Counted from the first letter of the stretch, positions 13,893 to 40,820 are shown. The stretch is DNA of 64,000 nt from Cyanidioschyzon merolae (GCA_000091205.1 AP006497.2), one strand, 5' to 3'. Made by a program: numbers and translations. Notes: generated from the sequence alone by a model not told the origin.

Positions 13893-16148
13893 ATGGAAGC
13901 ATACCTCTCAGCACCTTCACGACCGAGTGTGACGCTTTCTGAATTCTCTGGTCGCCGGGTTTGCCAGACGAAACGGAACGATTCTCTTCTGGGCGCTCGG
14001 GGGAGGTTTGCACCGGGCACGTGGGAGCGCGTAGTGCTCGGGCGTCGCGGTGGTTCCCGTACAGTCAGTCGTTTGCCTCAAGTGCGTGCAACAGCTACTG
14101 CTGGGGTATCGCTAGTGAAGCCAAAGCAGACGGGGAACGCGTTCGCTGACCTCTGCATCAACAGCATTCGTTTCCTGGCTGTCGACGCCGTAGAGAAGGC
14201 GAACTCTGGACACCCTGGAGCGCCCATGGGTCAGGCCCCGCTCGCGTTTACTCTTTGGGACAAGTATCTGCGCTTTAACCCCAAGAATCCGAACTGGGTC
14301 AATCGCGATCGTTTTGTGCTAAGCTGTGGTCATGGGTCTATGCTTCAGTATGCTCTGCTTTACCTTTATGGATACGATCAACCAACAATGGACGATATCA
14401 AAACTTTCTGTGAATTTGGTTCTTGCGCTACGAGTCACCCCGAGAACTTTCTTCTTCCTGGCGTTGAAGTGACCACAGGGCCTCTGGGCTCTGGCGTGGC
14501 ACAGGCTGTTGGTCTCGCTATCGCCGAAGCGCACCTCGGAGCAATGTTCAACACCCCAGAGGAGAAGCTGATTGACCATTACACCTACTTCATTATGAGT
14601 GATGGATGCATGCAAGAAGGAGTAGCTGCAGAGGCCGCATCTTTGGCAGGCCATTTGGGACTGGGGAAACTAATCGGGTTTTTCGATGATAACAAGATAA
14701 CTTACGATGGACCAACAGACCTTGCGTTTAGTGAGGATGTCGTATCTAGATTCAAATCGTATAACTGGCAGGTAATTAGCATTGCAGATGGAAACACAGA
14801 CATCGACAACATCTCGAAAGCAATCGAGGAGGCGCAAAAAGATCTGACACGACCATCACTAATCATAGTTCCGACAACAATTGGTTTTGGCTCACCAAAA
14901 CACGCGAACAAAAGGACAGCACATGGAGAACCTTTCGGATCTGACGAAGTCAAGGCAACGCGGGAGAATCTTGGATGGAAATATGCTCCTTTCGAGGTCC
15001 CAGAGGAGGTGCTGAAACATTGTCGCCGCAAGATCCAAGAGGGGGCACGTCTTGAACAGGAATGGAATGAGCTCTTGCAGCGGTACAAGAGTAAGCACCC
15101 AGAACAGGCTGCACTATTCGAGCGGATGGTGATTCGCAAGGAGAAGAGCCCTGGTTGGGAAAAGGCCCTCAAGGATTGTGCGGCAAAGACAGGCTCCATG
15201 GCTACGAGGCAAGTCTCCGGCGCAATGCTCAATGCGCTCGCTGCGGTGATGCCGGAGATCATCGGGGGATCTGCAGACCTGGCCCCTTCGAACAACACGC
15301 TCCTGAAGGGCTTTGGCGATTTCTCTCGTAACAACTACAAAGCCAAGAATATGCGCTTCGGTGTCCGCGAGGCAGCGATGACTGCGATCACCGCGGGCAT
15401 CAAGCTCCACAACACTGGACTGTTTCCCTACTGCGCGACTTTTCTGATATTCACCGATTACGCCCGGGGCATGCTCCGCCTTGCTGCCCTCTCCGAGGCG
15501 GGAATCACGTTCATTACAACGCACGACTCCGTCGCCTTAGGCGAGGATGGCCCCACGCACCAGCCCATCGAGCATCTGGCTAGCCTGCGAGCTATGCCGA
15601 ATGTGTACACGTTCCGTCCGTGCGATGCGAACGAGTGCGCAGCTGGCTATGCGCTCTCGATCCGGCATGATGACAAAGTCGTTCTGTTGGCGCTCACGCG
15701 ACAGAAGACGAACAAGCTCGAGACATCCTCATACGATGGTGCCCTGCGCGGAGCGTACGTGGTTTCGGATAATAGCCCTGCGGGCAAGCACCCGGATGTG
15801 ATCCTTATCGGAACAGGCTCCGAGGTGGACGTCGTCGTGGAGGCCGCCGATCAACTACGAACTAGCGATGCTTTGAATGTGCGCGTGGTGTCGATGCCCT
15901 GCATGGAGCTCTTTGAGGACCAGGATGCAGCTTATCAAGAGTCTGTGCTTCCTGCTGCCGTGCCTCGCAGCCGGAGGGTCGTATGTGAGGCTGCCTCAAG
16001 CTTCGGCTGGTCGAAGTATGCGGATCACTTTGTGTGCATCGATCGCTTCGGAGCGTCCGGCAAAGGGCCTGACCTGATGAAGTACTTTGGGATCACGCCG
16101 TCGAACGTAGCGAAGAAGGCGCGAGAGGCTGCAGGAAAAGGCGTTTGA
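13893..16148 (+). CDS. Transketolase-like protein, copy A, with substitutions at catalytic and cofactor residues in aa 145-345 and an N-terminal extension
   Basis: 751-aa ORF, identical to copy B outside aa 145-345. Within that patch 'SMLQYALLYLYGY' has Tyr where His is conserved, 'IMSDGCMQEG' replaces the GDG motif with SDG, and 'ITYDGPTD' has Pro where His is conserved. Confidence 0.8.
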   Translation: MEAYLSAPSRPSVTLSEFSGRRVCQTKRNDSLLGARGRFAPGTWERVVLGRRGGSRTVSRLPQVRATATAGVSLVKPKQTGNAFADLCINSIRFLAVDAVEKANSGHPGAPMGQAPLAFTLWDKYLRFNPKNPNWVNRDRFVLSCGHGSMLQYALLYLYGYDQPTMDDIKTFCEFGSCATSHPENFLLPGVEVTTGPLGSGVAQAVGLAIAEAHLGAMFNTPEEKLIDHYTYFIMSDGCMQEGVAAEAASLAGHLGLGKLIGFFDDNKITYDGPTDLAFSEDVVSRFKSYNWQVISIADGNTDIDNISKAIEEAQKDLTRPSLIIVPTTIGFGSPKHANKRTAHGEPFGSDEVKATRENLGWKYAPFEVPEEVLKHCRRKIQEGARLEQEWNELLQRYKSKHPEQAALFERMVIRKEKSPGWEKALKDCAAKTGSMATRQVSGAMLNALAAVMPEIIGGSADLAPSNNTLLKGFGDFSRNNYKAKNMRFGVREAAMTAITAGIKLHNTGLFPYCATFLIFTDYARGMLRLAALSEAGITFITTHDSVALGEDGPTHQPIEHLASLRAMPNVYTFRPCDANECAAGYALSIRHDDKVVLLALTRQKTNKLETSSYDGALRGAYVVSDNSPAGKHPDVILIGTGSEVDVVVEAADQLRTSDALNVRVVSMPCMELFEDQDAAYQESVLPAAVPRSRRVVCEAASSFGWSKYADHFVCIDRFGASGKGPDLMKYFGITPSNVAKKAREAAGKGV

Positions 16149-16447
16149 GGACGCCGCGGAAGCAGCGGTTCTGTGCCGGGCAAAGATTTTCAAGCGGCGT
16201 TTGCTGCGGCAACGCTCTGCGGAATGGGAACGCTTTGGAAGAGAGTATTCTTGCAGGGTCTAAACACGGCTGTAGTATCCCGCGTGATCACGTTGGGCCT
16301 CATCGTTCTCGTTCGCAAATGCGTTCCGTAGAACGTGCTGTTCTCTAGGGTAACAACGGCTGGGTACGCGGCAGCTGCATCGCCTCTGGGCTGGAGCGGG
16401 TCCTGCGGTTTTGAACCGTTGTCCACCTCGAAGGTTTTCTCCCGCCG

Positions 16448-16963
16448 ATGGCGTCCGGGTTGGAGCACCTCCAACGGGCGCTCTGGAGACGGGGCCTTCC
16501 GTGCTTCAGCCTTGACTGGCTCACGCAAGCACACGAACGTTACCCAGACGTTGAAGAACTCGTAACGTTTGCTCTGGAAACAGTCGACTTTGAGGACCGG
16601 CGCGTCGTCGAGAGAGGCAGCCTTCCTGCGGAGGCACAGCCAGCGCTGCTCTCCAAGGAAGACGGCGTGGTCGTTCCCATACGCGGGGAGCTTCTCGTTT
16701 TTCAGGTGCTGGACGTTGCGGACGTCAGCGCCGCTGAGGAAAAAGCGGATCTTCCAAGCGGGCCCGAGCGCACTCTGAAGCTTCTGCTGACGGACGGTCG
16801 CCTCGAGTTGGCCGCTATCGAGGACGCTCCGATACCGGACCTCGGAACGAGTCTCCCTCGTTGCACGAAAGTCTGTGTGCGGAAACCTATGCTGCTGCAC
16901 GGGTTGCTGGTGCTGCGTCCCGAGAACACGTCCGTAGTGAGGCCTCGGCCGAGCTGCATATAG
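16448..16963 (+). CDS. RMI1-like DUF1767/OB-fold protein, copy A. Possibly only part of the gene.
   Basis: 'LKLLLTDGRLELAAIEDAPIPDLGTSLPRCTKVCVRKPMLLHGLLVLRPENTSVV' resembles the RMI1/TDRD3 OB-fold signature. The region is GC-rich with long ORFs on both strands, so the exact gene model is uncertain. Confidence 0.4.
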   Translation: MASGLEHLQRALWRRGLPCFSLDWLTQAHERYPDVEELVTFALETVDFEDRRVVERGSLPAEAQPALLSKEDGVVVPIRGELLVFQVLDVADVSAAEEKADLPSGPERTLKLLLTDGRLELAAIEDAPIPDLGTSLPRCTKVCVRKPMLLHGLLVLRPENTSVVRPRPSCI

Positions 16964-17641
16964 AAGGAGTGGCTGCGGCTGCCGCTTGGGCGTATCGCAA
17001 ACGAGTTCTTGGTGATGCATCGGGCGAGCAGCTGCCGCGTCCAGCTCGAGTGTCGGACCGAATATCGCCTGTTTGATGATGTATCTGCGTGGAGCTTTCG
17101 AGATGGATACGCTTGTACGAAAAATGATCGTAGGTGTGGCATGCCTGCATGCTCGAGACACCGGCAGGATGCGTTCTACGACTGTGCCTCGGAGGCTCGT
17201 GCAGAACGCTGCCGAGACGTGCACACTGGCGCTGTGGCGCTTTCGGGCTACGGAAGTCTGGAAAGAGCGTTCTCCAAGCTTTGCACAACGCCTATGCCGG
17301 TACCTGCAAGACCACGCTGTGTCGTGAGGCACCCCTGGTTCCCATGGGTCATGCTTCAGAGCGCGAGTGAAGCGCCGCGGATGCTGCTCCATAGCAGAAT
17401 AGGTGCGGTGCTAGATCGAACTAGCGGCCTGATCTAATATGCACGCTGGTGCGTGAAAGTCTTCCATGCACATTTTGGGATATGGAATCGAGTGCGTAGC
17501 AGAAGATTGCGCAAGACTGTTTCGATGCATGCGAGTGCGCACGCTGTGACGCAGCAGGGGATTTGCGAGCCTCGGCTGGCAGGGCCCCCAGCCGGCGTCC
17601 ACGAGGGAATAGCTGAGCTGTCCCGTCTGTGTGTGGCGTTC

Positions 17642-17646
17642 GCAGT

Positions 17647-17685
<39 letters not shown>

Positions 17686-17687
17686 GC
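17642..17687. repeat. (GCAACA)n / (GCAGYA)n hexanucleotide microsatellite
   Basis: 'gcagtagcagcaacagcaacagcaacagcaacagcaacagcagcg'. Copy B (31942-31987) differs by two substitutions. Confidence 0.9.
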
Positions 17688-18714
17688 GCTCGACTCCAGA
17701 GCAAGCGCTCACTGAAGAAACGCCACCGGGTAGGGCATCTATGCAGCGAACCATAATCCTCAGAGCGAAGTCTGGAGACTGGTGTGTGGAACACGGTGGA
17801 TCTGGTGCGGAATGATATCTGCTTCCGTAAATGCCGATTGGAATCGAGACATTTAGGGATCCCCTATAAGATTCAAGGATCCTGCGCTACTGAAGAACAA
17901 CTTGCGGGGACTCACCGAGGATCCATCGTCGTGTCCGAACGATCGCGGCGAAGGATGCAAACGCATGATCTCCCCAGTCACGCATAATGCCACGGACGGA
18001 AGGTGCATAAGATATTTCGATTCCAGTTCTATTCGTGCACGCATGAGCTCCCTAGTCACGCATAATGCCACGGAGTAAAAGTACACAACGTATCTAGATT
18101 CCGGTTTACTTCTTGCGCTTCTTGTTCATACTGTTGCAAGGCGAAATCGTCGGTGTTCGCAGTTATTCACGGGTATAACGCCGAAATTTGCGATACCCTG
18201 ACGCTTACCGGTGGGCGGGAGCCCTCCTGTGGACACACTCGGCGATACTCGGTGCATGGGCTGTAGATCACAGGCGGACGATCGTTAAAGGTCGCTGTGA
18301 TTTTAGTGTTGCCCATACCTCTACGCGTGGAAGTCATCCCCAGAGGGCGGCTCTCGAGCGCGCTGCCCTCGGTGACTCGGAGCGGCGCATGGTCTCCGCA
18401 CTGGTAGCGATGATGCAGGAGCATCACTCGAGCGCAACCTGTGTACGCCCCTCTCGGGCACCAGTCTGCGTAAATCTACCAGAAAAATATTCGATCGTCT
18501 CTGCCGTAGGTGTCTTGCTCGACAGTGCGGTCAGCGCGGTGCATTGGATGCGCGGAGCTGCCCCTGGGATGGTCCGCTTGGTTTCGGGTTGTGCGCGGGT
18601 CTTCCAGTGACCCCTCGCGTCCACAGAAGCATCAGGCCGGTGTCACGTAGAGCGCTCCAGTTGCTGCGAGCCTGTGGATCCTGCACTAGCCGAGCACCGA
18701 CTGGGCGCTCAAGG

Positions 18715-21036
18715 TTACAGCGGGGATCGTCCAGTGTCTGTATCACGGTGGTAGTCGAAGGGCTCATTGAAAACGCATCCAACTTGACCCCGTAGATATC
18801 TCTCCATGAGATCCCTGGTTGAAGCGTTGAACTCTTCCGAAATGGGGCGGCCGAAGTAGCGGCTTTCGTTCAGCTGCTTTCGGACACGCTTTGCGAGCAC
18901 CTTTCCGAGTTCGACGCCCCACTGGTCGAATGAATTGATGTCCCAGATGAAACCCTGGACTGCCGTGCGATGCTCATAGAGCGCGAGCAACTGGCCAGTG
19001 GCGTACGGATCCAGCCTCTGCAGCAGCAGCGTCAGACTCGGCCTGTTGCCAGTCGTCACGAGATGCGGAATCAGCCATTCGGGGCGGCCCTCTGCACGAC
19101 ACTCCGCCGCTGTTTTGCCGTACGCCAGAGCATCTGGCTGGGCGAAAAAGTTCGCCATGAGCTCGTCTGCATTGCTGACCGGCTCACCCTCGATGCACAG
19201 CGGGTACTGGGACTCGATGAAGCCAATAAAATCGCAGGGTACCGTCTGCCCCATATGCAGCAGCTGGAAAAACGAGTGCTGGCCGTTGGTGCCGGGCTCT
19301 CCAAAGTCGATCTCACCGACCGCGTAGTCGACGTCGTCGCCGCGCAGCGTCACGTGCTTACCGTTGCTCTCCATGTCAACCTGCTGGATATGAGCGGGGA
19401 ACTTGAGAAGCGCCTCTGCGTAAGGATGCAGCGCCCGGCTCTTGTAGCCGAGAAAAGACAGGTTCCAGACGCCGAGAAGCCCCATGATCACCGGCAAGTT
19501 CCCCGCCAGCGGACTAGCAACGTCGTAAAAGTTCGCATCAACAGAGCGCGCGCCCTCTAGAAATCGCAGGAACGTGGGGAAGCCGTACTGAATCGAGAGC
19601 GGCAGCGCTCCGACCGCAGAGCACACGGAATACCTACCCCCGACCCAGTCCCAAAACTCAAAAGTGTTCCGCGGGTCGATCCCGAACTTCTCCACCATCG
19701 GCACGTTGCTGCTGCAGGCAACCATGTGGAGCCGCACGACCTCATCCGAGCGCCCCATTTCGGACCAGAGCCATTCGCGCATCGCCCGTGCATTCAGAAG
19801 CGTCTCCGCGGTTGTGAACGACTTGCTCACGATCACTATCAGCGTCTCCTCCGCCGACAGATCCTGCGTGCAGCGCTTGATATCCACAGGATCCACGTTG
19901 CTGAGAAAATGAAGGTGCCGCCCCCGCGCCGCCTCAAACGCCTCCGGATCCGTCCGAAACGCCTCGTGCACAAAGTCTGGCCCCAGATACGAGCCGCCAA
20001 TCCCCACAGCGATGACGCTGCGAAGCGGCTTCCCCGTGGCGCCGCGATGCTCCCCGCTGCGCACCCGCTCGCTGAACTCACGCACGTGATCGAGCACCCG
20101 CCACACGTCACGAACAACGTCCGTACCGTCGACAACAAGGCTTGCGTTCCGCTCCGCGCGAAGCGCCGTATGCAGCACGGCGCGCCGCTCGGTCACGTTT
20201 ATGTGCGCGCCGGACTGCATCGCGCGGATCTTATCCACCAAACGCGCACGACGCGCTAGCGCGAAAAGTAGCTCAATCGTATCCTTCGTCACCCGCTGCC
20301 GCGAGTAGTCGAGGTAGATCCCGTCATACTCAGCGCGCAGAGAACGCACGCGATCGACGTCCTGCATCAGCTCCCGCAGGTGCAAACGATCGATCTCAGA
20401 TGCATGCTCCACCAGCCGTCTCCACTCGGCAGTCTCCGAGATGAGGACGTAGTCGGTCGGCACCGGCAGTGGTGGCGGCGTTTCCGAAGGAAGCCGCCTC
20501 CCAACGGTGTAGCTCCCGCGAACGTCCCCCGCTGTGCAACGCGGAAACGCACGTCTCCGCAAAAGCCCAGCAGACCCGTGGTGCGGGTACAGCGCCCTGG
20601 ATCGGCGCGATCCAGCTACCCCACCCCGAAGCGGCCACCCAGGCACGACAAAGGCGCTCATCAGGCGAACACTCTCCCAGCAAGCAAAGACCAGGTGCAC
20701 ACTATTGCGCACTGCACCGCGCAGCGAGCTTTCAACTGGCGTCCGCTTCTTGGGCGATTCGCCTCCGGCACGCGCGGCAGGCGGGTGCAGCTGCGAGGGC
20801 GCGGCCAACGGATCAGCGACTCGTTGATAGACTTTCACCTGAATTGCGTTCCATACGCAGGTGCGTGCCATCAACTGCTCTTTCGCCGCTGATGAGAGAC
20901 GCGTTCCGCGTGCGTGCCTTAGCAGAAATAAAAAATCTAGGGGAAGGTATGGGCATGGAAGTCGGAGATCAAAGGCGGTCGCCATGGCCGGCTTCTTGAG
21001 GGAAAGGACGAAAGAAATCCTGGTCTCGCCGACCAT
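18715..21036 (-). CDS. Glucose-6-phosphate isomerase, copy A. The ORF start is probably too far upstream.
   Basis: PGI core from about aa 195 ('[51 protein letters not shown]...'). The first ~35 aa of the ORF (20930-21036) are antisense to a TnpB-like element fragment. The true start is likely an internal Met (aa 56 or 126), followed by an Arg/Ser-rich presequence-like stretch. Confidence 0.85.
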
Positions 21037-21413
21037 GGAGCGAAGAAGCGCAAGTGACGAAGAAGAAGAGAGGCACAGGGGCGGCAGGCGAGAAGAGGGG
21101 TTCGCCCGATGAGACTGCGACGAGACTGTACTGGGAGAGGGGGCACGAGATCGAGGAACTCTCGCAATATCGAGTTCATGCAGAGGAAATATAGAGATGG
21201 AGTTCGTGACCTGGGACCTCTATGCCGCCATCAATATCAGGGAATGTGCGGTTCTGGAGACGAGGCCCGCAGAGCCGACGCGATCCAGCATTGTGGGGCA
21301 GCCCCTGAGGCTTGAAGTGCACAAGGCGAAGCTGCAGCCGATGGCAGGGGCTGGTCAGGAACTGCTGGGAGGCGTCTGGGACTGGATATATATTTACCTA
21401 CCATGGTTGTGGA
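20930..21413 (+). mobile_element. 3' fragment of the TnpB/Fanzor-like element, copy 3A. Its terminus is exactly the right boundary of the 7.5-kb repeat.
   Basis: DNA homology to 12470-12957 ('agaaataaaaaatctaggggaaggtatgg...', 'ctcgccgaccatggagcgaagaagcgcaag'). The tail ORF reads '[36 protein letters not shown]' and the end is 'tatatatttacctaccatggttgtgga'. Confidence 0.55.
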
Positions 21414-26293: not shown

Positions 26294-26761
26294 CTACCGG
26301 CCGGTGCTCCCGAAACCCTTGCAGCCGCGTTGCGTTTCCTCCAGCTCGGCCACCTCCACAACTGGTGGTGTCTCGATCCGTTCCAGAATAAGCTGAGCAA
26401 TCCGCATCCCAACTTCGACCTGGAAGCATTCCTCGCCCAGGTTGAAAATCACAACACCGAGGTTCCCGCGGTAGTCCTGATCCACTACTCCAGCGCCGAG
26501 ATCGATACCGTGCTTCAGAGCCAGCCCGCTACGAGGTGCAACACGGCCATACGTGCCGACAGGTACGGCAACTGCTAGGTCAGTGCGGACGAGCGCGCGG
26601 CCTCCTGGTGGAATCTCGACGCTCTCAGCGGCAAAGAGGTCGTAGCCCGCCGCGTGCTCTGAAGACCGGAGAGGCAACGTAGCGCACTCACTCAATCGTT
26701 TCACACGTAATGCACCAGACTCTTGATTGCTTTCCGTTTGGCACATGGTGAACCTCTTCAC
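26294..26761 (-). CDS. dUTP pyrophosphatase (dUTPase)
   Basis: 'AAGYDLFAAESVEIPPGGRALVRTDLAVAVPVGTYGRVAPRSGLALKHGIDLGAGVVDQDYRGNLGVVIFNLG...RIAQLILERI' carries canonical dUTPase motifs 1-5. Confidence 0.88.
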   Translation of the reverse strand: MKRFTMCQTESNQESGALRVKRLSECATLPLRSSEHAAGYDLFAAESVEIPPGGRALVRTDLAVAVPVGTYGRVAPRSGLALKHGIDLGAGVVDQDYRGNLGVVIFNLGEECFQVEVGMRIAQLILERIETPPVVEVAELEETQRGCKGFGSTGR

Positions 26762-28192
26762 GCACTAGCAGCGAAGCAGTAGTACGGAAATGCAAATTCC
26801 CGCCAGATATGTTACCGATGCGCGAGCGCATATGGCCAGATTCATGGGTGGCGCGCGCTCAAGCCACACGAGACCATGTTTGCGTGCCGCGCGCGCAAAA
26901 TGCTACGAACAGCGTCCTAGTCAGCTGTATACTGCGCGGGAAATCATCCCTCAAATAGCTGCCTGAGTCGCGTCCAGTGAACGAGTCGGGAGCATGCTAT
27001 CTTGTGGTCTCGCAGCGCGGGAACGCTAGAGCCGCTGCTGGTGGGGCTGTATACGCTGACGCAGTTATTTAGGTGCGCTATTGTCTAATCGAATGTGGAT
27101 CCCACCGGCTGCACACAAGCACCTGAGGACGAGAGGAGCACCTGCCGTATCCGTTTGAGTACGCATATGTTCCAACAGCGTGAGAATGATCGCACGAAAG
27201 GGAATGGTCGCCAGATTGTGCTAATGACGAGCTGTCTCCGAGTGCTGAGCCTGCCTCGTGCGCCCACTGTAAATCTCTGTTTGCCGCCGGCGCGCCTGAG
27301 GCAACCGCTAGGTGCAGACGTAATGGCCTCGTGATTCCTTGTGGGCATCATCTCGAGGACGCAGGCGGTTTCATACTATTTGCATTCGTTTCCGAGTGCG
27401 CTCCTAGGCGTTTAAACACGGCACTGGCAGGTTGCGCTCTGCGCGAGGCGCCGCTGCAGTTCGTGCTGGCTCGAACGGGCTCGTTTCTTTCTCGCGCAAC
27501 GTGTGGCTACTGCAATTTGTGATTTGTAATTGCTTATTGCTGCATGAAGCCGCGTCCGAGGCATACTCTATGGAACTCGAGCCCGAGCACCGAGAGGATT
27601 GGTGCAAAACTCGAGCGAGCTTAGCAGATTTCGAGCTATACCTTCGTGGCGATGTTTGATGAGGGGACCTGGCATACGTTCCCGCAGCATCAGCTTCTTG
27701 CATAAATGTCCAATGGTTTGAGCATGCAATATCGCCTGTTATCTTTTTATTCTGAAGCAGCACGCGGCGATTGATTGTTGAGTTCACATCGGAGCAATTT
27801 AGGCGCTTGCCTCGTATTTGCGCCGGCTTGCATCTATTTTCAGAAAGTTGGCTTCTTGGGACCCTATAGCATCTGTACAACCGACTCCGCATCAAGTGGT
27901 TTCAGTTTTTTCCCATTGTGAGGAAAACATGCTTGCATTGGATCCGTTTCGGTAATGCATGCCCGGAGGCGCACCTGATGATGCAGCCGCGATTAGCTCT
28001 CGTGCGTTGCGGTCGTTGGCAGGATGCGTATCAACGTGTGATGTTCAAGTTGATCCTTAGTTGTACATAAAATTCTAATTCAGGTCAGCGCAATCGACAA
28101 CCATGCGTTTCGCACGCGTTGACGACGACGACATCAAACATTCATAAGTTTTTGGGGAACGACTTTCAAGAAGCTTACCTTTCTGCAAAATA

Positions 28193-30448
28193 ATGCTCGC
28201 ATACCTCTCAGCACCTTCACGACCGAGTGTGACGCTTTCTGAATTCTCTGGTCGCCGGGTTTGCCAGACGAAACGGAACGATTCTCTTCTGGGCGCTCGG
28301 GGGAGGTTTGCACCGGGCACGTGGGAGCGCGTAGTGCTCGGGCGTCGCGGTGGTTCCCGTACAGTCAGTCGTTTGCCTCAAGTGCGTGCAACAGCTACTG
28401 CTGGGGTATCGCTAGTGAAGCCAAAGCAGACGGGGAACGCGTTCGCTGACCTCTGCATCAACAGCATTCGTTTCCTGGCTGTCGACGCCGTAGAGAAGGC
28501 GAACTCTGGACACCCTGGAGCGCCCATGGGTCAGGCCCCGCTCGCGTTTACTCTTTGGGACAAGTATCTGCGCTTTAACCCCAAGAATCCGAACTGGGTC
28601 AATCGCGATCGTTTTGTGCTAAGCAGCGGCCACGGGTCAATGCTATTATATGCTTTGCTTCACCTCTATGGGTATGATCGTCCAACAATAGAAGATATCA
28701 AACAGTTTCGGCAGCTTGGTGCGGTAACCGCGGGTCACCCCGAGAACTTTCTTCTTCCTGGCGTTGAAGTGACCACAGGGCCTCTGGGCTCTGGTGTGGC
28801 ACAGGCTGTTGGTCTCGCTATCGCCGAAGCGCACCTCGGAGCAATGTTCAACACCCCACAGGAGAAGCTGATTGACCATTACACTTACTTTATCATGGGT
28901 GACGGATGTGCGCAGGAAGGTGTTGCCTCCGAGGCATCGTCTCTTGCAGGGCATTTACGACTGGGGAAGCTGATCGGTTTCTATGATGATAACAAAATAA
29001 CGATTGACGGGCACACTGATCTTTCATTCAGCGAGGATGTGGGTGCACGCTATGAGGCGTACGGTTGGCAGGTCCTGAGGGTTCCCAACGGTAATGAGGA
29101 TCTCGGAGCAATTGAGCAGGCCATCCTCACAGCAAAAAGCGATACAACGCGTCCATCACTGATAATTGTCTCGACTATTATTGGCTTTGGATCCCCTCAC
29201 AAAGCAGACACGCATGATGTTCACGGAGCTGCCCTCGGTGCCGACGAAGTCAAGGCAACGCGGGAGAATCTTGGATGGAAATATGCTCCTTTCGAGGTCC
29301 CAGAGGAGGTGCTGAAACATTGTCGCCGCAAGATCCAAGAGGGGGCACGTCTTGAACAGGAATGGAATGAGCTCTTGCAGCGGTACAAGAGTAAGCACCC
29401 AGAACAGGCTGCACTATTCGAGCGGATGGTGATTCGCAAGGAGAAGAGCCCTGGTTGGGAAAAGGCCCTCAAGGATTGTGCGGCAAAGACAGGCTCCATG
29501 GCTACGAGGCAAGTCTCCGGCGCAATGCTCAATGCGCTCGCTGCGGTGATGCCGGAGATCATCGGGGGATCTGCAGACCTGGCCCCTTCGAACAACACGC
29601 TCCTGAAGGGCTTTGGCGATTTCTCTCGTAACAACTACAAAGCCAAGAATATGCGCTTCGGTGTCCGCGAGGCAGCGATGACTGCGATCACCGCGGGCAT
29701 CAAGCTCCACAACACTGGACTGTTTCCCTACTGCGCGACTTTTCTGATATTCACCGATTACGCCCGGGGCATGCTCCGCCTTGCTGCCCTCTCCGAGGCG
29801 GGAATCACGTTCATTACAACGCACGACTCCGTCGCCTTAGGCGAGGATGGCCCCACGCACCAGCCCATCGAGCATCTGGCTAGCCTGCGAGCTATGCCGA
29901 ATGTGTACACGTTCCGTCCGTGCGATGCGAACGAGTGCGCAGCTGGCTATGCGCTCTCGATCCGGCATGATGACAAAGTCGTTCTGTTGGCGCTCACGCG
30001 ACAGAAGACGAACAAGCTCGAGACATCCTCATACGATGGTGCCCTGCGCGGAGCGTACGTGGTTTCGGATAATAGCCCTGCGGGCAAGCACCCGGATGTG
30101 ATCCTTATCGGAACAGGCTCCGAGGTGGACGTCGTCGTGGAGGCCGCCGATCAACTACGAACTAGCGATGCTTTGAATGTGCGCGTGGTGTCGATGCCCT
30201 GCATGGAGCTCTTTGAGGACCAGGATGCAGCTTATCAAGAGTCTGTGCTTCCTGCTGCCGTGCCTCGCAGCCGGAGGGTCGTATGTGAGGCTGCCTCAAG
30301 CTTCGGCTGGTCGAAGTATGCGGATCACTTTGTGTGCATCGATCGCTTCGGAGCGTCCGGCAAAGGGCCTGACCTGATGAAGTACTTTGGGATCACGCCG
30401 TCGAACGTAGCGAAGAAGGCGCGAGAGGCTGCAGGAAAAGGCGTTTGA
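28193..30448 (+). CDS. Transketolase, copy B (canonical catalytic residues), with an N-terminal presequence-like extension
   Basis: Contains '[19 protein letters not shown]', '[13 protein letters not shown]', '[11 protein letters not shown]', '[13 protein letters not shown]' and '[15 protein letters not shown]', matching conserved TPP-transketolase residues. 751 aa. Confidence 0.9.
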
Positions 30449-30747
30449 GGACGCCGCGGAAGCAGCGGTTCTGTGCCGGGCAAAGATTTTCAAGCGGCGT
30501 TTGCTGCGGCAACGCTCTGCGGAATGGGAACGCTTTGGAAGAGAGTATTCTTGCAGGGTCTAAACACGGCTGTAGTATCCCGCGTGATCACGTTGGGCCT
30601 CATCGTTCTCGTTCGCAAATGCGTTCCGTAGAACGTGCTGTTCTCTAGGGTAACAACGGCTGGGTACGCGGCAGCTGCATCGCCTCTGGGCTGGAGCGGG
30701 TCCTGCGGTTTTGAACCGTTGTCCACCTCGAAGGTTTTCTCCCGCCG

Positions 30748-31263
30748 ATGGCGTCCGGGTTGGAGCACCTCCAACGGGCGCTCTGGAGACGGGGCCTTCC
30801 GTGCTTCAGCCTTGACTGGCTCACGCAAGCACACGAACGTTACCCAGACGTTGAAGAACTCGTAACGTTTGCTCTGGAAACAGTCGACTTTGAGGACCGG
30901 CGCGTCGTCGAGAGAGGCAGCCTTCCTGCGGAGGCACAGCCAGCGCTGCTCTCCAAGGAAGACGGCGTGGTCGTTCCCATACGCGGGGAGCTTCTCGTTT
31001 TTCAGGTGCTGGACGTTGCGGACGTCAGCGCCGCTGAGGAAAAAGCGGATCTTCCAAGCGGGCCCGAGCGCACTCTGAAGCTTCTGCTGACGGACGGTCG
31101 CCTCGAGTTGGCCGCTATCGAGGACGCTCCGATACCGGACCTCGGAACGAGTCTCCCTCGTTGCACGAAAGTCTGTGTGCGGAAACCTATGCTGCTGCAC
31201 GGGTTGCTGGTGCTGCGTCCCGAGAACACGTCCGTAGTGAGGCCTCGGCCGAGCTGCATATAG
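30748..31263 (+). CDS. RMI1-like DUF1767/OB-fold protein, copy B
   Basis: Identical to 16448-16963. Confidence 0.4.
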   Translation: MASGLEHLQRALWRRGLPCFSLDWLTQAHERYPDVEELVTFALETVDFEDRRVVERGSLPAEAQPALLSKEDGVVVPIRGELLVFQVLDVADVSAAEEKADLPSGPERTLKLLLTDGRLELAAIEDAPIPDLGTSLPRCTKVCVRKPMLLHGLLVLRPENTSVVRPRPSCI

Positions 31264-31952
31264 AAGGAGTGGCTGCGGCTGCCGCTTGGGCGTATCGCAA
31301 ACGAGTTCTTGGTGATGCATCGGGCGAGCAGCTGCCGCGTCCAGCTCGAGTGTCGGACCGAATATCGCCTGTTTGATGATGTATCTGCGTGGAGCTTTCG
31401 AGATGGATACGCTTGTACGAAAAATGATCGTAGGTGTGGCATGCCTGCATGCTCGAGACACCGGCAGGATGCGTTCTACGACTGTGCCTCGGAGGCTCGT
31501 GCAGAACGCTGCCGAGACGTGCACACTGGCGCTGTGGCGCTTTCGGGCTACGGAAGTCTGGAAAGAGCGTTCTCCAAGCTTTGCACAACGCCTATGCCGG
31601 TACCTGCAAGACCACGCTGTGTCGTGAGGCACCCCTGGTTCCCATGGGTCATGCTTCAGAGCGCGAGTGAAGCGCCGCGGATGCTGCTCCATAGCAGAAT
31701 AGGTGCGGTGCTAGATCGAACTAGCGGCCTGATCTAATATGCACGCTGGTGCGTGAAAGTCTTCCATGCACATTTTGGGATATGGAATCGAGTGCGTAGC
31801 AGAAGATTGCGCAAGACTGTTTCGATGCATGCGAGTGCGCACGCTGTGACGCAGCAGGGGATTTGCGAGCCTCGGCTGGCAGGGCCCCCAGCCGGCGTCC
31901 ACGAGGGAATAGCTGAGCTGTCCCGTCTGTGTGTGGCGTTCGCAGTAGCAGT

Positions 31953-31985
<33 letters not shown>

Positions 31986-33014
31986 GCGCTCGACTCCAGA
32001 GCAAGCGCTCACTGAAGAAACGCCACCGGGTAGGGCATCTATGCAGCGAACCATAATCCTCAGAGCGAAGTCTGGAGACTGGTGTGTGGAACACGGTGGA
32101 TCTGGTGCGGAATGATATCTGCTTCCGTAAATGCCGATTGGAATCGAGACATTTAGGGATCCCCTATAAGATTCAAGGATCCTGCGCTACTGAAGAACAA
32201 CTTGCGGGGACTCACCGAGGATCCATCGTCGTGTCCGAACGATCGCGGCGAAGGATGCAAACGCATGATCTCCCCAGTCACGCATAATGCCACGGACGGA
32301 AGGTGCATAAGATATTTCGATTCCAGTTCTATTCGTGCACGCATGAGCTCCCTAGTCACGCATAATGCCACGGAGTAAAAGTACACAACGTATCTAGATT
32401 CCGGTTTACTTCTTGCGCTTCTTGTTCATACTGTTGCAAGGCGAAATCGTCGGTGTTCGCAGTTATTCACGGGTATAACGCCGAAATTTGCGATACCCTG
32501 ACGCTTACCGGTGGGCGGGAGCCCTCCTGTGGACACACTCGGCGATACTCGGTGCATGGGCTGTAGATCACAGGCGGACGATCGTTAAAGGTCGCTGTGA
32601 TTTTAGTGTTGCCCATACCTCTACGCGTGGAAGTCATCCCCAGAGGGCGGCTCTCGAGCGCGCTGCCCTCGGTGACTCGGAGCGGCGCATGGTCTCCGCA
32701 CTGGTAGCGATGATGCAGGAGCATCACTCGAGCGCAACCTGTGTACGCCCCTCTCGGGCACCAGTCTGCGTAAATCTACCAGAAAAATATTCGATCGTCT
32801 CTGCCGTAGGTGTCTTGCTCGACAGTGCGGTCAGCGCGGTGCATTGGATGCGCGGAGCTGCCCCTGGGATGGTCCGCTTGGTTTCGGGTTGTGCGCGGGT
32901 CTTCCAGTGACCCCTCGCGTCCACAGAAGCATCAGGCCGGTGTCACGTAGAGCGCTCCAGTTGCTGCGAGCCTGTGGATCCTGCACTAGCCGAGCACCGA
33001 CTGGGCGCTCAAGG

Positions 33015-35336
33015 TTACAGCGGGGATCGTCCAGTGTCTGTATCACGGTGGTAGTCGAAGGGCTCATTGAAAACGCATCCAACTTGACCCCGTAGATATC
33101 TCTCCATGAGATCCCTGGTTGAAGCGTTGAACTCTTCCGAAATGGGGCGGCCGAAGTAGCGGCTTTCGTTCAGCTGCTTTCGGACACGCTTTGCGAGCAC
33201 CTTTCCGAGTTCGACGCCCCACTGGTCGAATGAATTGATGTCCCAGATGAAACCCTGGACTGCCGTGCGATGCTCATAGAGCGCGAGCAACTGGCCAGTG
33301 GCGTACGGATCCAGCCTCTGCAGCAGCAGCGTCAGACTCGGCCTGTTGCCAGTCGTCACGAGATGCGGAATCAGCCATTCGGGGCGGCCCTCTGCACGAC
33401 ACTCCGCCGCTGTTTTGCCGTACGCCAGAGCATCTGGCTGGGCGAAAAAGTTCGCCATGAGCTCGTCTGCATTGCTGACCGGCTCACCCTCGATGCACAG
33501 CGGGTACTGGGACTCGATGAAGCCAATAAAATCGCAGGGTACCGTCTGCCCCATATGCAGCAGCTGGAAAAACGAGTGCTGGCCGTTGGTGCCGGGCTCT
33601 CCAAAGTCGATCTCACCGACCGCGTAGTCGACGTCGTCGCCGCGCAGCGTCACGTGCTTACCGTTGCTCTCCATGTCAACCTGCTGGATATGAGCGGGGA
33701 ACTTGAGAAGCGCCTCTGCGTAAGGATGCAGCGCCCGGCTCTTGTAGCCGAGAAAAGACAGGTTCCAGACGCCGAGAAGCCCCATGATCACCGGCAAGTT
33801 CCCCGCCAGCGGACTAGCAACGTCGTAAAAGTTCGCATCAACAGAGCGCGCGCCCTCTAGAAATCGCAGGAACGTGGGGAAGCCGTACTGAATCGAGAGC
33901 GGCAGCGCTCCGACCGCAGAGCACACGGAATACCTACCCCCGACCCAGTCCCAAAACTCAAAAGTGTTCCGCGGGTCGATCCCGAACTTCTCCACCATCG
34001 GCACGTTGCTGCTGCAGGCAACCATGTGGAGCCGCACGACCTCATCCGAGCGCCCCATTTCGGACCAGAGCCATTCGCGCATCGCCCGTGCATTCAGAAG
34101 CGTCTCCGCGGTTGTGAACGACTTGCTCACGATCACTATCAGCGTCTCCTCCGCCGACAGATCCTGCGTGCAGCGCTTGATATCCACAGGATCCACGTTG
34201 CTGAGAAAATGAAGGTGCCGCCCCCGCGCCGCCTCAAACGCCTCCGGATCCGTCCGAAACGCCTCGTGCACAAAGTCTGGCCCCAGATACGAGCCGCCAA
34301 TCCCCACAGCGATGACGCTGCGAAGCGGCTTCCCCGTGGCGCCGCGATGCTCCCCGCTGCGCACCCGCTCGCTGAACTCACGCACGTGATCGAGCACCCG
34401 CCACACGTCACGAACAACGTCCGTACCGTCGACAACAAGGCTTGCGTTCCGCTCCGCGCGAAGCGCCGTATGCAGCACGGCGCGCCGCTCGGTCACGTTT
34501 ATGTGCGCGCCGGACTGCATCGCGCGGATCTTATCCACCAAACGCGCACGACGCGCTAGCGCGAAAAGTAGCTCAATCGTATCCTTCGTCACCCGCTGCC
34601 GCGAGTAGTCGAGGTAGATCCCGTCATACTCAGCGCGCAGAGAACGCACGCGATCGACGTCCTGCATCAGCTCCCGCAGGTGCAAACGATCGATCTCAGA
34701 TGCATGCTCCACCAGCCGTCTCCACTCGGCAGTCTCCGAGATGAGGACGTAGTCGGTCGGCACCGGCAGTGGTGGCGGCGTTTCCGAAGGAAGCCGCCTC
34801 CCAACGGTGTAGCTCCCGCGAACGTCCCCCGCTGTGCAACGCGGAAACGCACGTCTCCGCAAAAGCCCAGCAGACCCGTGGTGCGGGTACAGCGCCCTGG
34901 ATCGGCGCGATCCAGCTACCCCACCCCGAAGCGGCCACCCAGGCACGACAAAGGCGCTCATCAGGCGAACACTCTCCCAGCAAGCAAAGACCAGGTGCAC
35001 ACTATTGCGCACTGCACCGCGCAGCGAGCTTTCAACTGGCGTCCGCTTCTTGGGCGATTCGCCTCCGGCACGCGCGGCAGGCGGGTGCAGCTGCGAGGGC
35101 GCGGCCAACGGATCAGCGACTCGTTGATAGACTTTCACCTGAATTGCGTTCCATACGCAGGTGCGTGCCATCAACTGCTCTTTCGCCGCTGATGAGAGAC
35201 GCGTTCCGCGTGCGTGCCTTAGCAGAAATAAAAAATCTAGGGGAAGGTATGGGCATGGAAGTCGGAGATCAAAGGCGGTCGCCATGGCCGGCTTCTTGAG
35301 GGAAAGGACGAAAGAAATCCTGGTCTCGCCGACCAT
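33015..35336 (-). CDS. Glucose-6-phosphate isomerase, copy B
   Basis: Identical 773-aa ORF to 18715-21036. Confidence 0.85.
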
Positions 35337-35713
35337 GGAGCGAAGAAGCGCAAGTGACGAAGAAGAAGAGAGGCACAGGGGCGGCAGGCGAGAAGAGGGG
35401 TTCGCCCGATGAGACTGCGACGAGACTGTACTGGGAGAGGGGGCACGAGATCGAGGAACTCTCGCAATATCGAGTTCATGCAGAGGAAATATAGAGATGG
35501 AGTTCGTGACCTGGGACCTCTATGCCGCCATCAATATCAGGGAATGTGCGGTTCTGGAGACGAGGCCCGCAGAGCCGACGCGATCCAGCATTGTGGGGCA
35601 GCCCCTGAGGCTTGAAGTGCACAAGGCGAAGCTGCAGCCGATGGCAGGGGCTGGTCAGGAACTGCTGGGAGGCGTCTGGGACTGGATATATATTTACCTA
35701 CCATGGTTGTGGA
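35230..35713 (+). mobile_element. 3' fragment of the TnpB/Fanzor-like element, copy 3B (duplicate of 20930-21413)
   Basis: Identical to copy 3A. The sequence diverges from copy A immediately after 'ccatggttgtgga'. Confidence 0.55.
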
Positions 35714-40670: not shown

Positions 40671-40699
40671 GAGCATGGCGTTTTCGCGCAGAACGAATG

Positions 40700-40820
40700 C
40701 ATGCTTTTTTCAGTGCTCCTCACCCATCTGAGTACTGCAATATGACTGATCTGACGGAGAAATGCAGCCTTAGTTGCAATATTCAGGAAAAAATATCCTA
40801 CGGGCAATTCGTCTTCGATC
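40700..40820 (+). repeat. Roughly 100-bp dispersed repeat, copy I4, abutting the 5' end of TnpB-like copy 4
   Basis: 'catctgagtactgcaatatgactgatctgacggagaaatgcagccttagttgcaatattcaggaaaaaatatcctacgggcaattcgtcttc' matches I1, I2 and I3. Confidence 0.6.

What the first reader, a model, noticed from the sequence alone, without database searches (positions are those of the whole stretch)
13899..35713. 7.5-kb direct repeat bounded on the right by the TnpB-like element terminus and on the left by the transketolase start codon
Two copies, 13899-21413 and 28199-35713, each carry transketolase, an RMI1-like gene and G6PI, and are separated by 6.8 kb of unique DNA (ThiD, dUTPase). Identity begins at codon 3 of transketolase. 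The two copies keep different ATG contexts and therefore different promoters (MEAYLS vs MLAYLS). Identity ends at the last base of the element terminus 'ccatggttgtgga'. A repeat edge coinciding exactly with a transposon end suggests transposon-mediated duplication or transduction of flanking host genes. An assembly artefact is unlikely because the copies differ at the microsatellite and in a 610-bp patch.
Basis: seen in the sequence. Interest (0 to 1): 0.65.

Follow-up and report, generated by a model that had tools for sequence, protein, structure and literature searches.

The report
Old duplication homogenized by gene conversion

Summary
The window is Cyanidioschyzon merolae 10D. The repeat is exactly as described: 13899-21413 and 28199-35713, gapless, with 178 mismatches. 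Of these, 176 lie in TK codons 145-350 and 2 in a CAG/CAA microsatellite. Independent metagenome contigs span three of the four junctions, so it is not an assembly artefact.

The sister genus Cyanidiococcus has the same locus with the same two-copy structure. Its left edge is also at the TK start codon, and its divergent patch sits at the same place. It has no transposon there, and its unit runs on through ThiD and dUTPase.

Inside the patch the copies group by paralog (Cm1+Cy1 and Cm2+Cy2, both 100% bootstrap). Everywhere else they group by species (100%). GC3 is raised in the identical parts but not in the patch.

The duplication therefore predates the genus split and has been homogenized by interlocus gene conversion ever since, except for the patch.

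The right-end element is a 587-bp internally deleted relic of the published Fanzor1 family CMe-1A. It was acquired later in the C. merolae lineage. It marks where homology now stops because copy 2 lost ThiD-dUTPase there.

This is a clean new example of a known process, not transposon-mediated duplication.

The parts
13899..21413 (.). Repeat copy 1 (7515 bp)
   Evidence: Gapless identity to 28199-35713 at offset 14300, with 178 mismatches
28199..35713 (.). Repeat copy 2 (7515 bp)
   Evidence: Junctions 28199 and 35713 are spanned by metagenome contigs L004 and L084-L086
13893..16148 (+). Transketolase TK1 (751 aa, BAM81493.1), carrying the derived 'type 1' patch
   Evidence: Pfam Transketolase_N, Transket_pyr and Transketolase_C. 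100% identical to P0001. Patch groups with Cyanidiococcus TK1
28193..30448 (+). Transketolase TK2 (751 aa, BAM81498.1), carrying the canonical 'type 2' patch
14325..14942 (+). Divergent patch in TK1 (TK nt 433-1050, codons 145-350). It has two divergent blocks split by a near-identical block at about 14434-14584
   Evidence: 176 of the 178 mismatches. pS 0.63 and dN 0.20 against TK2. 23 paralog-pattern sites against 3 species-pattern sites. GC3 0.44 against 0.65 in the rest of the gene, p=3e-7
28625..29242 (+). Divergent patch in TK2
   Evidence: Same calls as for the TK1 patch. Several metagenome contigs break exactly at 29243/14943, the patch's right edge
16448..16963 (+). RMI1-like ORF (171 aa), copy 1. 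Copy 2 is at 30748-31263
   Evidence: PF08585 RMI1_N_C, E 9.4e-11. The Cyanidiococcus orthologue (177 aa) is in the same position. The 400-aa antisense ORF 16190-17392 has no family match
17642..17685 (.). CAG/CAA microsatellite holding the only two non-patch differences (17652, 17654). The copy-2 equivalent is 31942-31985
   Evidence: Its length varies among the wild contigs
18715..20661 (-). Glucose-6-phosphate isomerase PGI1 (648 aa, BAM81495.1). PGI2 is at 33015-34961
   Evidence: Pfam PGI, E 2.9e-183. Start at Met126 of the mechanical ORF, matching the Cyanidiococcus N-terminus
20827..21413 (+). R1: internally deleted, non-autonomous relic of Fanzor1 element family CMe-1A. It begins 166 bp upstream of the PGI1 start, and its 3' end is the repeat edge
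   Evidence: 20827-20970 aligns to consensus 787-927 and 21134-21306 to consensus 2834-3010. About 70% identical to copies A, B and C over about 500 bp
35127..35713 (+). R2: the same relic in copy 2, 100% identical to R1
21414..28198 (.). Unique spacer with ThiD (24894-25787 +) and dUTPase (26294-26761 -). Cyanidiococcus has these genes in both copies
   Evidence: Cyanidiococcus layout
35714..36897 (.). Right flank of copy 2 up to the ABC transporter gene (36898-38922). It has no ThiD or dUTPase and no detectable similarity to 21414-28198
11493..12958 (+). Element copy B: a decayed IS630/Tc1-like transposase remnant joined to the same mini-CMe-1A module. It was used to define the shared 3' end. 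Sister copies are A 7129-8594 (-) and C 39424-40864 (-)
   Evidence: Pfam DDE_3 E 8.8e-8. NCBIfam IS630 transposase E 4.7e-10 and 6.8e-5. CMe-1A consensus 869-969 and 2840-3084. Alignments

Best explanation
The two copies are the surviving, still-converting core of an old tandem segmental duplication. The original unit was TK-RMI1-PGI-ThiD-dUTPase. It arose before Cyanidioschyzon and Cyanidiococcus separated.

Since then, non-crossover interlocus gene conversion has repeatedly copied one unit onto the other. Coding, synonymous and intergenic positions therefore stay identical within each species while drifting between species.

Two things escape conversion:
1. The DNA upstream of the TK start codon. 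TK1 keeps the original promoter side. TK2 faces the dUTPase gene across a shared intergenic region.
2. A ~0.6-kb segment of TK covering codons 145-350. By my alignment this is E. coli TktA residues ~64-267 (numbering from memory). It is the part of the PP domain that holds the diphosphate/metal-binding motif and three active-site histidines.

In this patch two paralog-specific versions have persisted in both genera. That is best explained by selection against converting it. Once it had diverged by ~30%, mismatch-dependent rejection of heteroduplex would reinforce the escape. This step is inferred.

The right edge in C. merolae is secondary. After the genus split, a non-autonomous deletion derivative of the Fanzor1 element CMe-1A landed upstream of PGI. 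It was copied to the other unit by the same conversion process. The ThiD-dUTPase part of copy 2 was then lost by a rearrangement whose breakpoint is the element's 3' end. The most simple route is ectopic recombination with another same-orientation copy downstream, or an element-end-associated deletion. This step is also inferred.

Homology, and therefore conversion, now stops at that base.
For: Shown here:
1. Same locus and same structure in Cyanidiococcus, in two independent assemblies. The order is TauE-WD40-TBCA-adh-DUF8361-[TK-RMI1-PGI-ThiD-dUT]x2-ABC.
2. In Cyanidiococcus the copies are 9.4-9.5 kb long. 138 of 141 mismatches lie in TK nt ~507-1041, against nt 433-1050 in C. merolae. Identity starts 1 nt before the ATG.
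3. Patch tree: Cm1+Cy1 100% and Cm2+Cy2 100% bootstrap. Rest of TK: Cm1+Cm2 100% and Cy1+Cy2 100%.
4. Site patterns: 23 paralog-type against 3 species-type sites in the patch; 0 against 78 outside it.
5. Patch dN: 0.12 and 0.06 between orthologous types, against 0.15-0.20 between paralogous types. Between-genus pS is 0.75-0.85, which is saturated. Within-species divergence outside the patch is 0.
6. Identity covers intergenic DNA and synonymous sites, so protein-level constraint cannot explain it.
7. There is a signature consistent with GC-biased conversion. Within TK, patch GC3 is 0.44-0.50 and the rest is 0.58-0.67 in both species (p=3e-7 for TK1, 2e-4 for TK2). Repeat genes PGI and RMI1 have GC3 0.69-0.73, against 0.52-0.54 in single-copy neighbours. 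Intergenic GC is 0.57-0.66 inside the repeat and 0.45-0.53 outside.
8. C. merolae ThiD and dUTPase, now single-copy, still show raised GC3 (0.62). This fits former membership of the converting unit.
9. The element is absent from both Cyanidiococcus loci and from the outgroup contig L003, which has a single TK-PGI.
10. No third TK paralogue from either species appears among the top homologues, so there is no outside donor for the patch.
11. Four differences between 10D and all wild contigs (17410, 18748, 18865, 20167) occur in contigs joined to either copy's flank. This suggests homogenization continued within the species. The caveat is that short-read assemblers may have collapsed the repeat.
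12. C. merolae is known for efficient homologous recombination (gene targeting, PMC3764038, abstract).
Against: - The steps that explain the right edge are inferred, not observed. Intergenic DNA is unalignable between the genera. No remnant of a second ThiD-dUTPase or of a downstream partner element is detectable.
- The direction of change is decided only by parsimony. C. merolae may have lost ThiD-dUT from copy 2, or Cyanidiococcus may have gained it. The GC3 result favours loss.
- Raised GC3 could partly reflect codon bias of highly expressed genes. Only the within-TK contrast controls for this.
- Selection on the patch is inferred from its persistence and from dN/dS of about 0.15. No functional difference between TK1 and TK2 has been measured.
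- Only two genera plus one unidentified metagenomic outgroup were available.
Confidence: 0.85

Rival explanations
1. First reader's view. A TnpB/Fanzor-type transposon recently duplicated or transduced TK-RMI1-PGI, so the repeat edge is the transposon end and the high identity reflects youth.
For: The repeat edge falls within 1-2 nt of the shared 3' end of four element copies. The element is a CMe-1A (Fanzor1) derivative, a family with about 150 copies in this genome. Identity outside the patch is essentially 100%.
Against: The same duplication, with the same left edge, the same patch and the same order of patch types, exists in Cyanidiococcus without any element copy. The patch is as old as the genus split. 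R is a 587-bp relic with no transposase and no second end flanking the 7.5-kb unit. Nothing element-like lies at either left junction.
Confidence: 0.04
2. Independent recent duplications in each genus. One copy's patch was later overwritten from a third, divergent TK gene present in both genomes.
For: It would explain 100% identity outside the patch without long-term conversion.
Against: No third TK from C. merolae or Cyanidiococcus appears among the closest homologues. The model needs the same left breakpoint at the ATG, the same patch limits, and type 1 upstream with type 2 downstream to arise twice. The GC3 contrast between patch and flanks points to a long history of conversion in the flanks.
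Confidence: 0.03
3. Assembly or haplotype artefact. There is a single locus in reality and the assembler duplicated it.
For: Perfect identity over kilobases is what a collapsed-then-expanded repeat can look like. Metagenome contigs break at the repeat and patch borders.
Against: Contig L004 runs continuously from R1 through ThiD, dUTPase and TK2 to R2. L005 and L089 cross junction 21413. L084-L086 cross junction 35713. Two Cyanidiococcus assemblies show the same two-copy layout. The two patch types are conserved across genera. Strain 10D is described as a haploid clone (PMC13353863).
Confidence: 0.01
4. The core model is right, but the coincidence of the right edge with the element end is chance. 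An ordinary deletion removed ThiD-dUTPase from copy 2 and happened to end there.
For: No direct trace of a transposon-mediated mechanism is left. The element is long dead and lacks a transposase.
Against: A random breakpoint anywhere in the ~4.2-kb PGI-ThiD interval would fall within ±2 nt of the element end roughly once in a thousand trials (my estimate from the coordinates). Ends of repeated elements are known sites of ectopic recombination and of element-end-initiated deletions (general knowledge).
Confidence: 0.1

Closest known systems
Long-lasting concerted evolution of duplicated protein-coding genes by gene conversion. Examples are tuf, and tkt in Vibrionales (Wang & Chen 2018, PMC6053082)
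   Same: Paralogues within a species are more alike than orthologues between species. Synteny shows that the duplication is older than the species. Identity holds at synonymous sites. A transketolase pair is among the published prokaryotic cases.
   Different: This case is in a eukaryote. The converting tract is a 7.5-9.5-kb multi-gene block that includes intergenic DNA, not a single gene. The block contains an internal island that has escaped conversion in both lineages.
Selection-limited gene conversion 'islands' in duplicated genes. Examples are primate red/green opsins, RHD/RHCE and gamma-globins, with theory by Walsh 1987 and Teshima & Innan 2004.
   Same: A small region of paralog-specific sequence sits in an otherwise homogenized pair, with sharp borders.
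   Different: The island here is conserved across two genera whose synonymous sites are saturated. It covers the cofactor-binding part of a central metabolic enzyme. Its functional meaning is untested.
CMe-1A, the Fanzor1 (eukaryotic TnpB-like) element family of C. merolae (Bao & Jurka 2013, PMC3627910)
   Same: R1/R2 and the 3' modules of copies A, B and C align to the 3169-bp consensus at positions ~787-969 and ~2834-3089. This includes the Fanzor1 C-terminal 'NRDFNAAINI' region.
   Different: The window copies lack consensus ~970-2833, so nearly all of the 734-aa ORF is gone. They end in a different ~35-nt tail from the consensus last ~85 nt. In A, B and C the module is fused to a decayed IS630/Tc1-like transposase remnant.
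Transposon-mediated gene capture or transduction (Helitron read-through, Pack-MULEs, L1 3' transduction). Recalled from general knowledge
   Same: A block of host genes has one border at a transposon end.
   Different: Here the host block was already duplicated before the element arrived. There is no second element end, no target-site duplication around the block and no transposase.
Plastid transketolase of Chlamydomonas reinhardtii (PDB 5ND5/5ND6)
   Same: It is the best solved relative of both TK copies (E 7e-243). Both window proteins have an ~85-residue N-terminal extension typical of plastid targeting.
   Different: TK1 carries 14 derived, genus-conserved substitutions in the patch. Several sit next to active-site or cofactor residues: S181 before the HPE histidine, S236 in the GDG motif, and E346-P347 after the HG histidine.

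Membership tests
Concerted evolution by interlocus gene conversion | Paralogues within a species are more similar to each other than to their orthologues in another species | tested here: met
   Outside the patch, Cm1+Cm2 and Cy1+Cy2 each have 100% bootstrap. There are 78 species-pattern sites and 0 paralog-pattern sites
Concerted evolution by interlocus gene conversion | The duplication predates the species split, shown by synteny and by paralog-specific markers shared across species | tested here: met
   Same gene order and same left edge in both genera. Patch tree Cm1+Cy1 100% and Cm2+Cy2 100%
Concerted evolution by interlocus gene conversion | Identity extends to synonymous and non-coding positions, so it is not explained by protein constraint | tested here: met
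   Zero differences in TK synonymous sites outside the patch, against between-genus pS of 0.75-0.85. Intergenic segments are identical
Concerted evolution by interlocus gene conversion | Compositional signature of GC-biased conversion in converted tracts | tested here: met
   GC3 is 0.44-0.50 in the patch and 0.58-0.67 in the rest of the same gene, in both species. Repeat genes and intergenic DNA are more GC-rich than their neighbours. Expression-linked codon bias is not fully excluded for the between-gene comparison
Concerted evolution by interlocus gene conversion | Direct observation of conversion events | not testable with these tools
   There is only indirect support. Four differences between 10D and the wild contigs are shared by contigs joined to either flank. 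Repeat collapse in short-read assemblies cannot be excluded
Fanzor1/TnpB-type element (CMe-1A family) | DNA homology to the published family consensus | tested here: met
   B matches consensus 2840-3084 with E 1e-47. R1/R2 match 2901-3010 with E 1.6e-14, and 787-927 plus 2834-3010 by local alignment
Fanzor1/TnpB-type element (CMe-1A family) | Encodes a TnpB-like protein (RuvC-like D..E..D with zinc ribbon) | tested here: not met
   Only about 20 N-terminal and about 85 C-terminal codons remain in the window copies. They give no Pfam, NCBIfam or PDB match, and hhalign to a PF07282 fragment gives E 0.14. Even the 734-aa consensus ORF gives no Pfam or PDB hit at E<=0.01. Its Fanzor1 assignment rests on Bao & Jurka 2013
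Fanzor1/TnpB-type element (CMe-1A family) | Structured guide-RNA scaffold at the 3' end | tested here: inconclusive
   The consensus fold of the last ~200 nt of four copies has a covariation term of about 0, with 4 of 42 pairs showing compensatory change. There are too few sequences to decide
Fanzor1/TnpB-type element (CMe-1A family) | A defined 3' terminus shared by copies | tested here: met
   A, B, C and R lose similarity within 1-2 nt of the same base. This tail differs from the published consensus tail
IS630/Tc1-mariner DDE transposon (5' module of copies A, B, C) | DDE transposase domain | tested here: met
   PF13358 DDE_3 scores 32.6 bits, above the 28.6 cut-off. NCBIfam IS630 matches profile positions 18-275 of 299, but below the curated cut-off because of frameshifts
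IS630/Tc1-mariner DDE transposon (5' module of copies A, B, C) | Terminal inverted repeats and TA target-site duplication | tested here: inconclusive
   No convincing inverted repeats or TA duplications are seen at the aligned ends of these ~70%-identical copies
Transposon-mediated duplication or transduction of host genes | The element is present wherever the duplication is present, or older than it | tested here: not met
   Cyanidiococcus has the duplication without the element
Transposon-mediated duplication or transduction of host genes | The mobilised block is bounded by element ends or a target-site duplication | tested here: not met
   Only the right side has an element end. The left junctions show no element sequence (the 13-mer near 28094 is a chance match)
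Transketolase (ThDP-dependent) | Three TK domains with the cofactor and catalytic residues retained in both copies | tested here: met
   Pfam domains. Histidines at 107, 147, 182 and 344, D237 and N267 are conserved in both types in the alignment. Correspondence to E. coli TktA H26, H66, H100, H261, D155 and N185 is from my own knowledge of that sequence

The most novel reading that the evidence does not exclude
The Fanzor-derived right end may not be a passive landmark. R1 and R2 keep the 3' region that in TnpB/Fanzor elements gives rise to the guide RNA. Bao & Jurka report that some CMe-1A copies elsewhere in the genome still encode intact Fanzor1. RNA-guided or structure-dependent breaks at the element end could have done three things. 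They could have spread the relic from one paralogous unit to the other ('paralogous homing'). They could have triggered the deletion of ThiD-dUTPase from copy 2. They could still seed the conversion tracts that keep the 6.5 kb to its left identical. A second, independent novel reading is that TK1 is a functionally distinct transketolase whose cofactor-domain patch has been defended against conversion since before the genus split.
Probability: 0.07. Interest if true: 0.75.

Novelty: new member of a known kind. Interest (0 to 1): 0.4.

Why it matters
1. Evolution. This is a very clean eukaryotic example of long-term concerted evolution of a multi-gene block. Between-genus synonymous sites are saturated. 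The block contains a sharply bounded island that has resisted conversion in two genera. [quoted passage not shown]

2. Interpretation. A 100%-identical repeat ending at a transposon end looks like a young transposon-driven event but is not. Identity-based dating of duplications fails here.

3. Practical use. C. merolae is a genetic model that relies on homologous recombination.
- TK, RMI1 and PGI each exist as two identical copies, so single knock-outs will be masked and targeting constructs can land in either copy.
- TK1 and TK2 differ only in promoter side and in codons 145-350. That gives a ready-made pair for testing what this part of the enzyme does.

4. Transposon biology. The locus places a dated, non-autonomous CMe-1A derivative at a rearrangement breakpoint. 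The window also shows that module fused to an IS630/Tc1-like transposase remnant. This bears on the unresolved classification of CMe-1A.

Tried and rejected
- Exact-protein look-ups of the window's TK, ABC transporter, ThiD and P0001 returned no contig. Organism identity came from the homologue search instead.
- Direct tests of TnpB-likeness on the element's C-terminal peptide all gave no significant match: Pfam, NCBIfam, PDB phmmer, a PDB profile search, and hhalign to a PF07282 fragment from L003. The link to Fanzor came only through the published CMe-1A consensus.
- The consensus Fanzor1 ORF also gives no Pfam or PDB hit.
- I looked for element sequence continuing past 21413/35713. Flanks are not significantly similar among copies, except B-R2 at 8/500 shuffles, uncorrected for 10 comparisons. 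They are also not similar to the consensus tail.
- I looked for terminal inverted repeats and TA duplications and found nothing convincing.
- The 13-mer resembling the element end near 28094, just upstream of copy 2, is a chance match (170/300 shuffles).
- I looked for a remnant of a second ThiD-dUTPase, or of the unit's tail, to the right of R2 and found none.
- The 20 nt right of each element end occur nowhere else in the window.
- The consensus RNA fold of the element's 3' end shows no useful covariation.
- Literature searches found no paper describing this duplication, or two TK genes, in C. merolae.
- Unequal crossing-over was rejected as the homogenizing process. It would delete or triplicate the unique ThiD-dUTPase spacer and would not preserve the fixed order of the two patch types.


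Full report
**What is there**

The window comes from Cyanidioschyzon merolae 10D. The first TK ORF is 100% identical to the annotated transketolase on the 902,900-bp chromosome. Both TK copies (BAM81493.1, BAM81498.1) and both PGI copies (BAM81495.1, BAM81500.1) are already in the public annotation.

At a fixed offset of 14300 the sequence 13899-21413 matches 28199-35713 without a gap. The flanks on both sides fall to about 25% identity. Of 178 mismatches, 176 lie in 14325-14942 inside TK. The other two lie in a CAG/CAA microsatellite.

Each copy carries three genes:
- TK, 751 aa.
- An RMI1-like ORF of 171 aa on the plus strand (PF08585). The 400-aa antisense ORF has no family match.
- PGI. 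Its real start is the Met at 20661 (648 aa), as shown by the Cyanidiococcus N-terminus and by one of the two GenBank models.

The 6785-bp unique spacer holds ThiD and dUTPase. Identity begins at the first base of TK codon 3, and the upstream DNA of the two copies is unrelated.

**Not an artefact**

Metagenome contigs from natural samples, 99.5-99.7% identical to the window, cross three of the four junctions.
- L004 runs from R1 through ThiD, dUTPase and TK2 to R2.
- L005 and L089 cross junction 21413.
- L084-L086 run from TK2 across junction 35713 into the ABC transporter and beyond.

Several of these contigs stop exactly at 14943/29243, the right border of the divergent patch. That is what an assembler does when it meets a true two-copy repeat.

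**The decisive comparison**

The closest TK homologues after C. merolae are two proteins from Cyanidiococcus yangmingshanensis. They are identical to each other outside residues ~145-350. Inside that segment one resembles TK1 and the other resembles TK2.

Their loci, from two independent assemblies, show the same neighbourhood as the window: TauE, WD40, TBCA, adh_short, DUF8361, then [TK-RMI1-PGI-ThiD-dUTPase] twice, then the ABC transporter.

The Cyanidiococcus copies are 9.4-9.5 kb long at an offset of 10067. They have 141 mismatches, of which 138 fall in TK nt ~507-1041. The C. merolae patch is nt 433-1050. Identity starts one base before the ATG.

A more distant cyanidialean metagenome contig (L003) has the same genes clustered but only a single TK-PGI.

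**Phylogenetic signal**

- In the patch, Cm1 groups with Cy1 and Cm2 with Cy2, both at 100% bootstrap. In the rest of TK, Cm1 groups with Cm2 and Cy1 with Cy2, again at 100%.
- Site patterns switch from 23 paralog-type against 3 species-type sites inside the patch to 0 against 78 outside it.
- Between the genera, synonymous sites are saturated (pS 0.75-0.85). Within each species the copies show zero differences outside the patch, including intergenic DNA.
- No third TK gene from either species appears among the homologues, so the patch was not imported from elsewhere.

This is the classic signature of a duplication older than the genus split that has been homogenized continuously by interlocus gene conversion, apart from one island.

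Unequal crossing-over is not a good alternative. It would delete or triplicate the unique spacer, and it would not keep the type-1/type-2 order.

**Composition supports a long history of conversion**

- Within TK, GC3 is 0.44-0.50 in the patch and 0.58-0.67 elsewhere, in both species (p = 3e-7 for TK1 and 2e-4 for TK2).
- PGI and RMI1 have GC3 of 0.69-0.73, against 0.52-0.54 for single-copy neighbours.
- Intergenic DNA is 57-66% GC inside the repeat and 45-53% outside.
- C. merolae ThiD and dUTPase are now single-copy but still have GC3 of 0.62. This fits with their having belonged to the converting unit, as they still do in Cyanidiococcus.
- Four differences between 10D and all wild contigs occur in contigs attached to either copy's flank. 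This suggests that homogenization continued within the species. The caveat is that short-read assemblers may have collapsed the repeat.

**The patch**

It covers TK residues 145-350. By my alignment to E. coli TktA (numbering from my own knowledge), this is about residues 64-267. That is the part of the PP domain with H66, H100, the GDG...N metal/diphosphate motif and H261.

All these residues are kept in both types. dN/dS between the types is about 0.15, so both copies look functional.

Type 1, the upstream copy, is the derived one at 14 of 23 diagnostic sites, against 4 for type 2. Several of its changes sit next to active-site residues: S181 before H182, S236 in the GDG motif, and E346-P347 after H344-G345.

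I infer that selection keeps the two versions apart. At ~30% divergence, heteroduplex rejection would then keep conversion tracts from crossing the patch, which would explain the sharp borders shared by both genera. No functional data exist.

**The element**

The right ~590 bp of each copy (20827-21413 and 35127-35713) is about 70% identical to the 3' module of three other copies in the window, A, B and C.

Direct family searches on its short ORF found nothing. Bao & Jurka 2013 describe a C. merolae Fanzor1 family, CMe-1A. It has about 150 copies, a 3169-bp consensus, no inverted repeats, and an unknown class. I took the consensus from their supplement.
- R1 aligns to consensus 787-927 and 2834-3010.
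- B aligns to consensus 869-969 and 2840-3084.

So R is an internally deleted, non-autonomous CMe-1A derivative that keeps only the first ~20 and last ~85 codons of the Fanzor1 ORF.

In copies A, B and C this module follows a decayed IS630/Tc1-like transposase (DDE_3 above the Pfam cut-off; NCBIfam IS630).

All four copies lose similarity within 1-2 nt of the base equivalent to 21413. The repeat edge therefore does coincide with the shared end of this subfamily. The published consensus ends in a different ~85-nt tail.

**The right edge**

The element is absent from both Cyanidiococcus loci and from L003. It therefore arrived in the C. merolae lineage after the duplication and cannot have caused it.

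In Cyanidiococcus the repeat continues through ThiD and dUTPase. In C. merolae copy 2 lacks them, and the ABC transporter follows 1.2 kb after R2.

The most economical history has three steps:
1. The relic entered one unit upstream of PGI.
2. It was copied to the other unit by conversion while homologous DNA still lay on both sides of it.
3. The ThiD-dUTPase part of copy 2 was lost by a rearrangement ending at the element's 3' end. This could be ectopic recombination with a same-orientation copy downstream, or an element-end-associated deletion.

A random breakpoint in the ~4.2-kb interval would hit this position about once in a thousand trials. These steps are inferred. Intergenic DNA does not align between the genera, and no remnant is detectable.

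**Comparison with known systems**

- The process is ordinary concerted evolution with a conversion-resistant island, as known for opsins, RH genes and globins (my own knowledge).
- Long-lasting cases have been catalogued in prokaryotes, including a tkt pair in Vibrionales (PMC6053082).
- What is unusual here is the combination of four things: a eukaryote, a multi-gene 7.5-9.5-kb tract that includes intergenic DNA, persistence past synonymous saturation between genera, and an island with the same borders in both genera.
- I found no paper describing it, although both gene pairs are annotated.

**Verdict**

The reading as a transposon-mediated duplication is not supported. The transposon end is the present limit of homology, not the origin of the repeat. 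This is a new, tidy member of a known kind, of moderate interest.

Noticed in passing
window 8424-9697 and 10390-11663 (arms of inverted repeat 8305-9702 / 10385-11782): A perfect 1274-bp inverted repeat. Each arm carries a 364-aa DUF8361-family gene (8590-9684 plus, 10403-11497 minus) together with about 170 bp of the adjoining element. The element copies A and B outside the arms are only ~72% identical. Cyanidiococcus has one copy of this gene and the outgroup contig L003 has two in tandem. It looks like a second, inverted case of conversion or recent duplication with a sharp border inside a transposon.
   Followed up: partly
window 7129-8594 (-), 11493-12958 (+), 39424-40864 (-): Three ~1.45-kb composite elements. 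Each is a frameshifted IS630/Tc1-like transposase (HTH plus DDE_3) followed directly by the internally deleted CMe-1A (Fanzor1) module. All three share the same junctions, so the composite multiplied as a unit. Bao & Jurka left CMe-1A unclassified, and this association may bear on its classification.
   Followed up: partly
window 63075-63252 and 57039-57141: Two further fragments that match only the 5' end of the composite element.
   Followed up: no
window 62424-62959 (-): A 76%-identical match to positions 90-630 of the CMe-1A consensus. This is the part that Bao & Jurka equate with the separate element TE-N2_CMe.
   Followed up: no
window 18715-21036 and 33015-35336 (minus strand): The two PGI genes have identical DNA but are annotated differently in GenBank: 648 aa (BAM81495.1) and 773 aa (BAM81500.1). 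The 773-aa model starts inside the transposon relic. The Cyanidiococcus protein supports the 648-aa start.
   Followed up: yes
window 718-816, 23970-24361, 56251-56635: An unclassified repeat family, 66-75% identical and 100-400 bp long. Each copy lies roughly 0.5-1.1 kb upstream of a gene start.
   Followed up: no
window 17961-18116 and 32261-32416: Two tandem 78-nt units, 78% identical, in the RMI1-PGI intergenic region of each repeat copy.
   Followed up: no
L003 16252-16548 (-): The outgroup cyanidialean contig carries a 98-aa ORF that matches PF07282 (the TnpB/Cas12f zinc-ribbon region). It lies between the WD40 and TauE genes of the same conserved neighbourhood. In that contig the DUF8361-TK-PGI block is inverted relative to Cyanidiococcus, and there is no RMI1 ORF between TK and PGI.
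   Followed up: partly
window 16448-16963 and 30748-31263: The repeat, which is maintained by non-crossover recombination, itself contains an RMI1-like gene. RMI1 is part of the complex that dissolves double Holliday junctions into non-crossovers (general knowledge). This is probably a coincidence. The ORF has only the N-terminal OB-fold region.
   Followed up: no
window 14943 / 29243: Five independent metagenome contigs (L005, L006, L084, L085 and the TK end of others) begin or end exactly at the right border of the TK patch. Repeat-induced assembly breaks therefore mark the conversion tract boundary in public data.
   Followed up: yes
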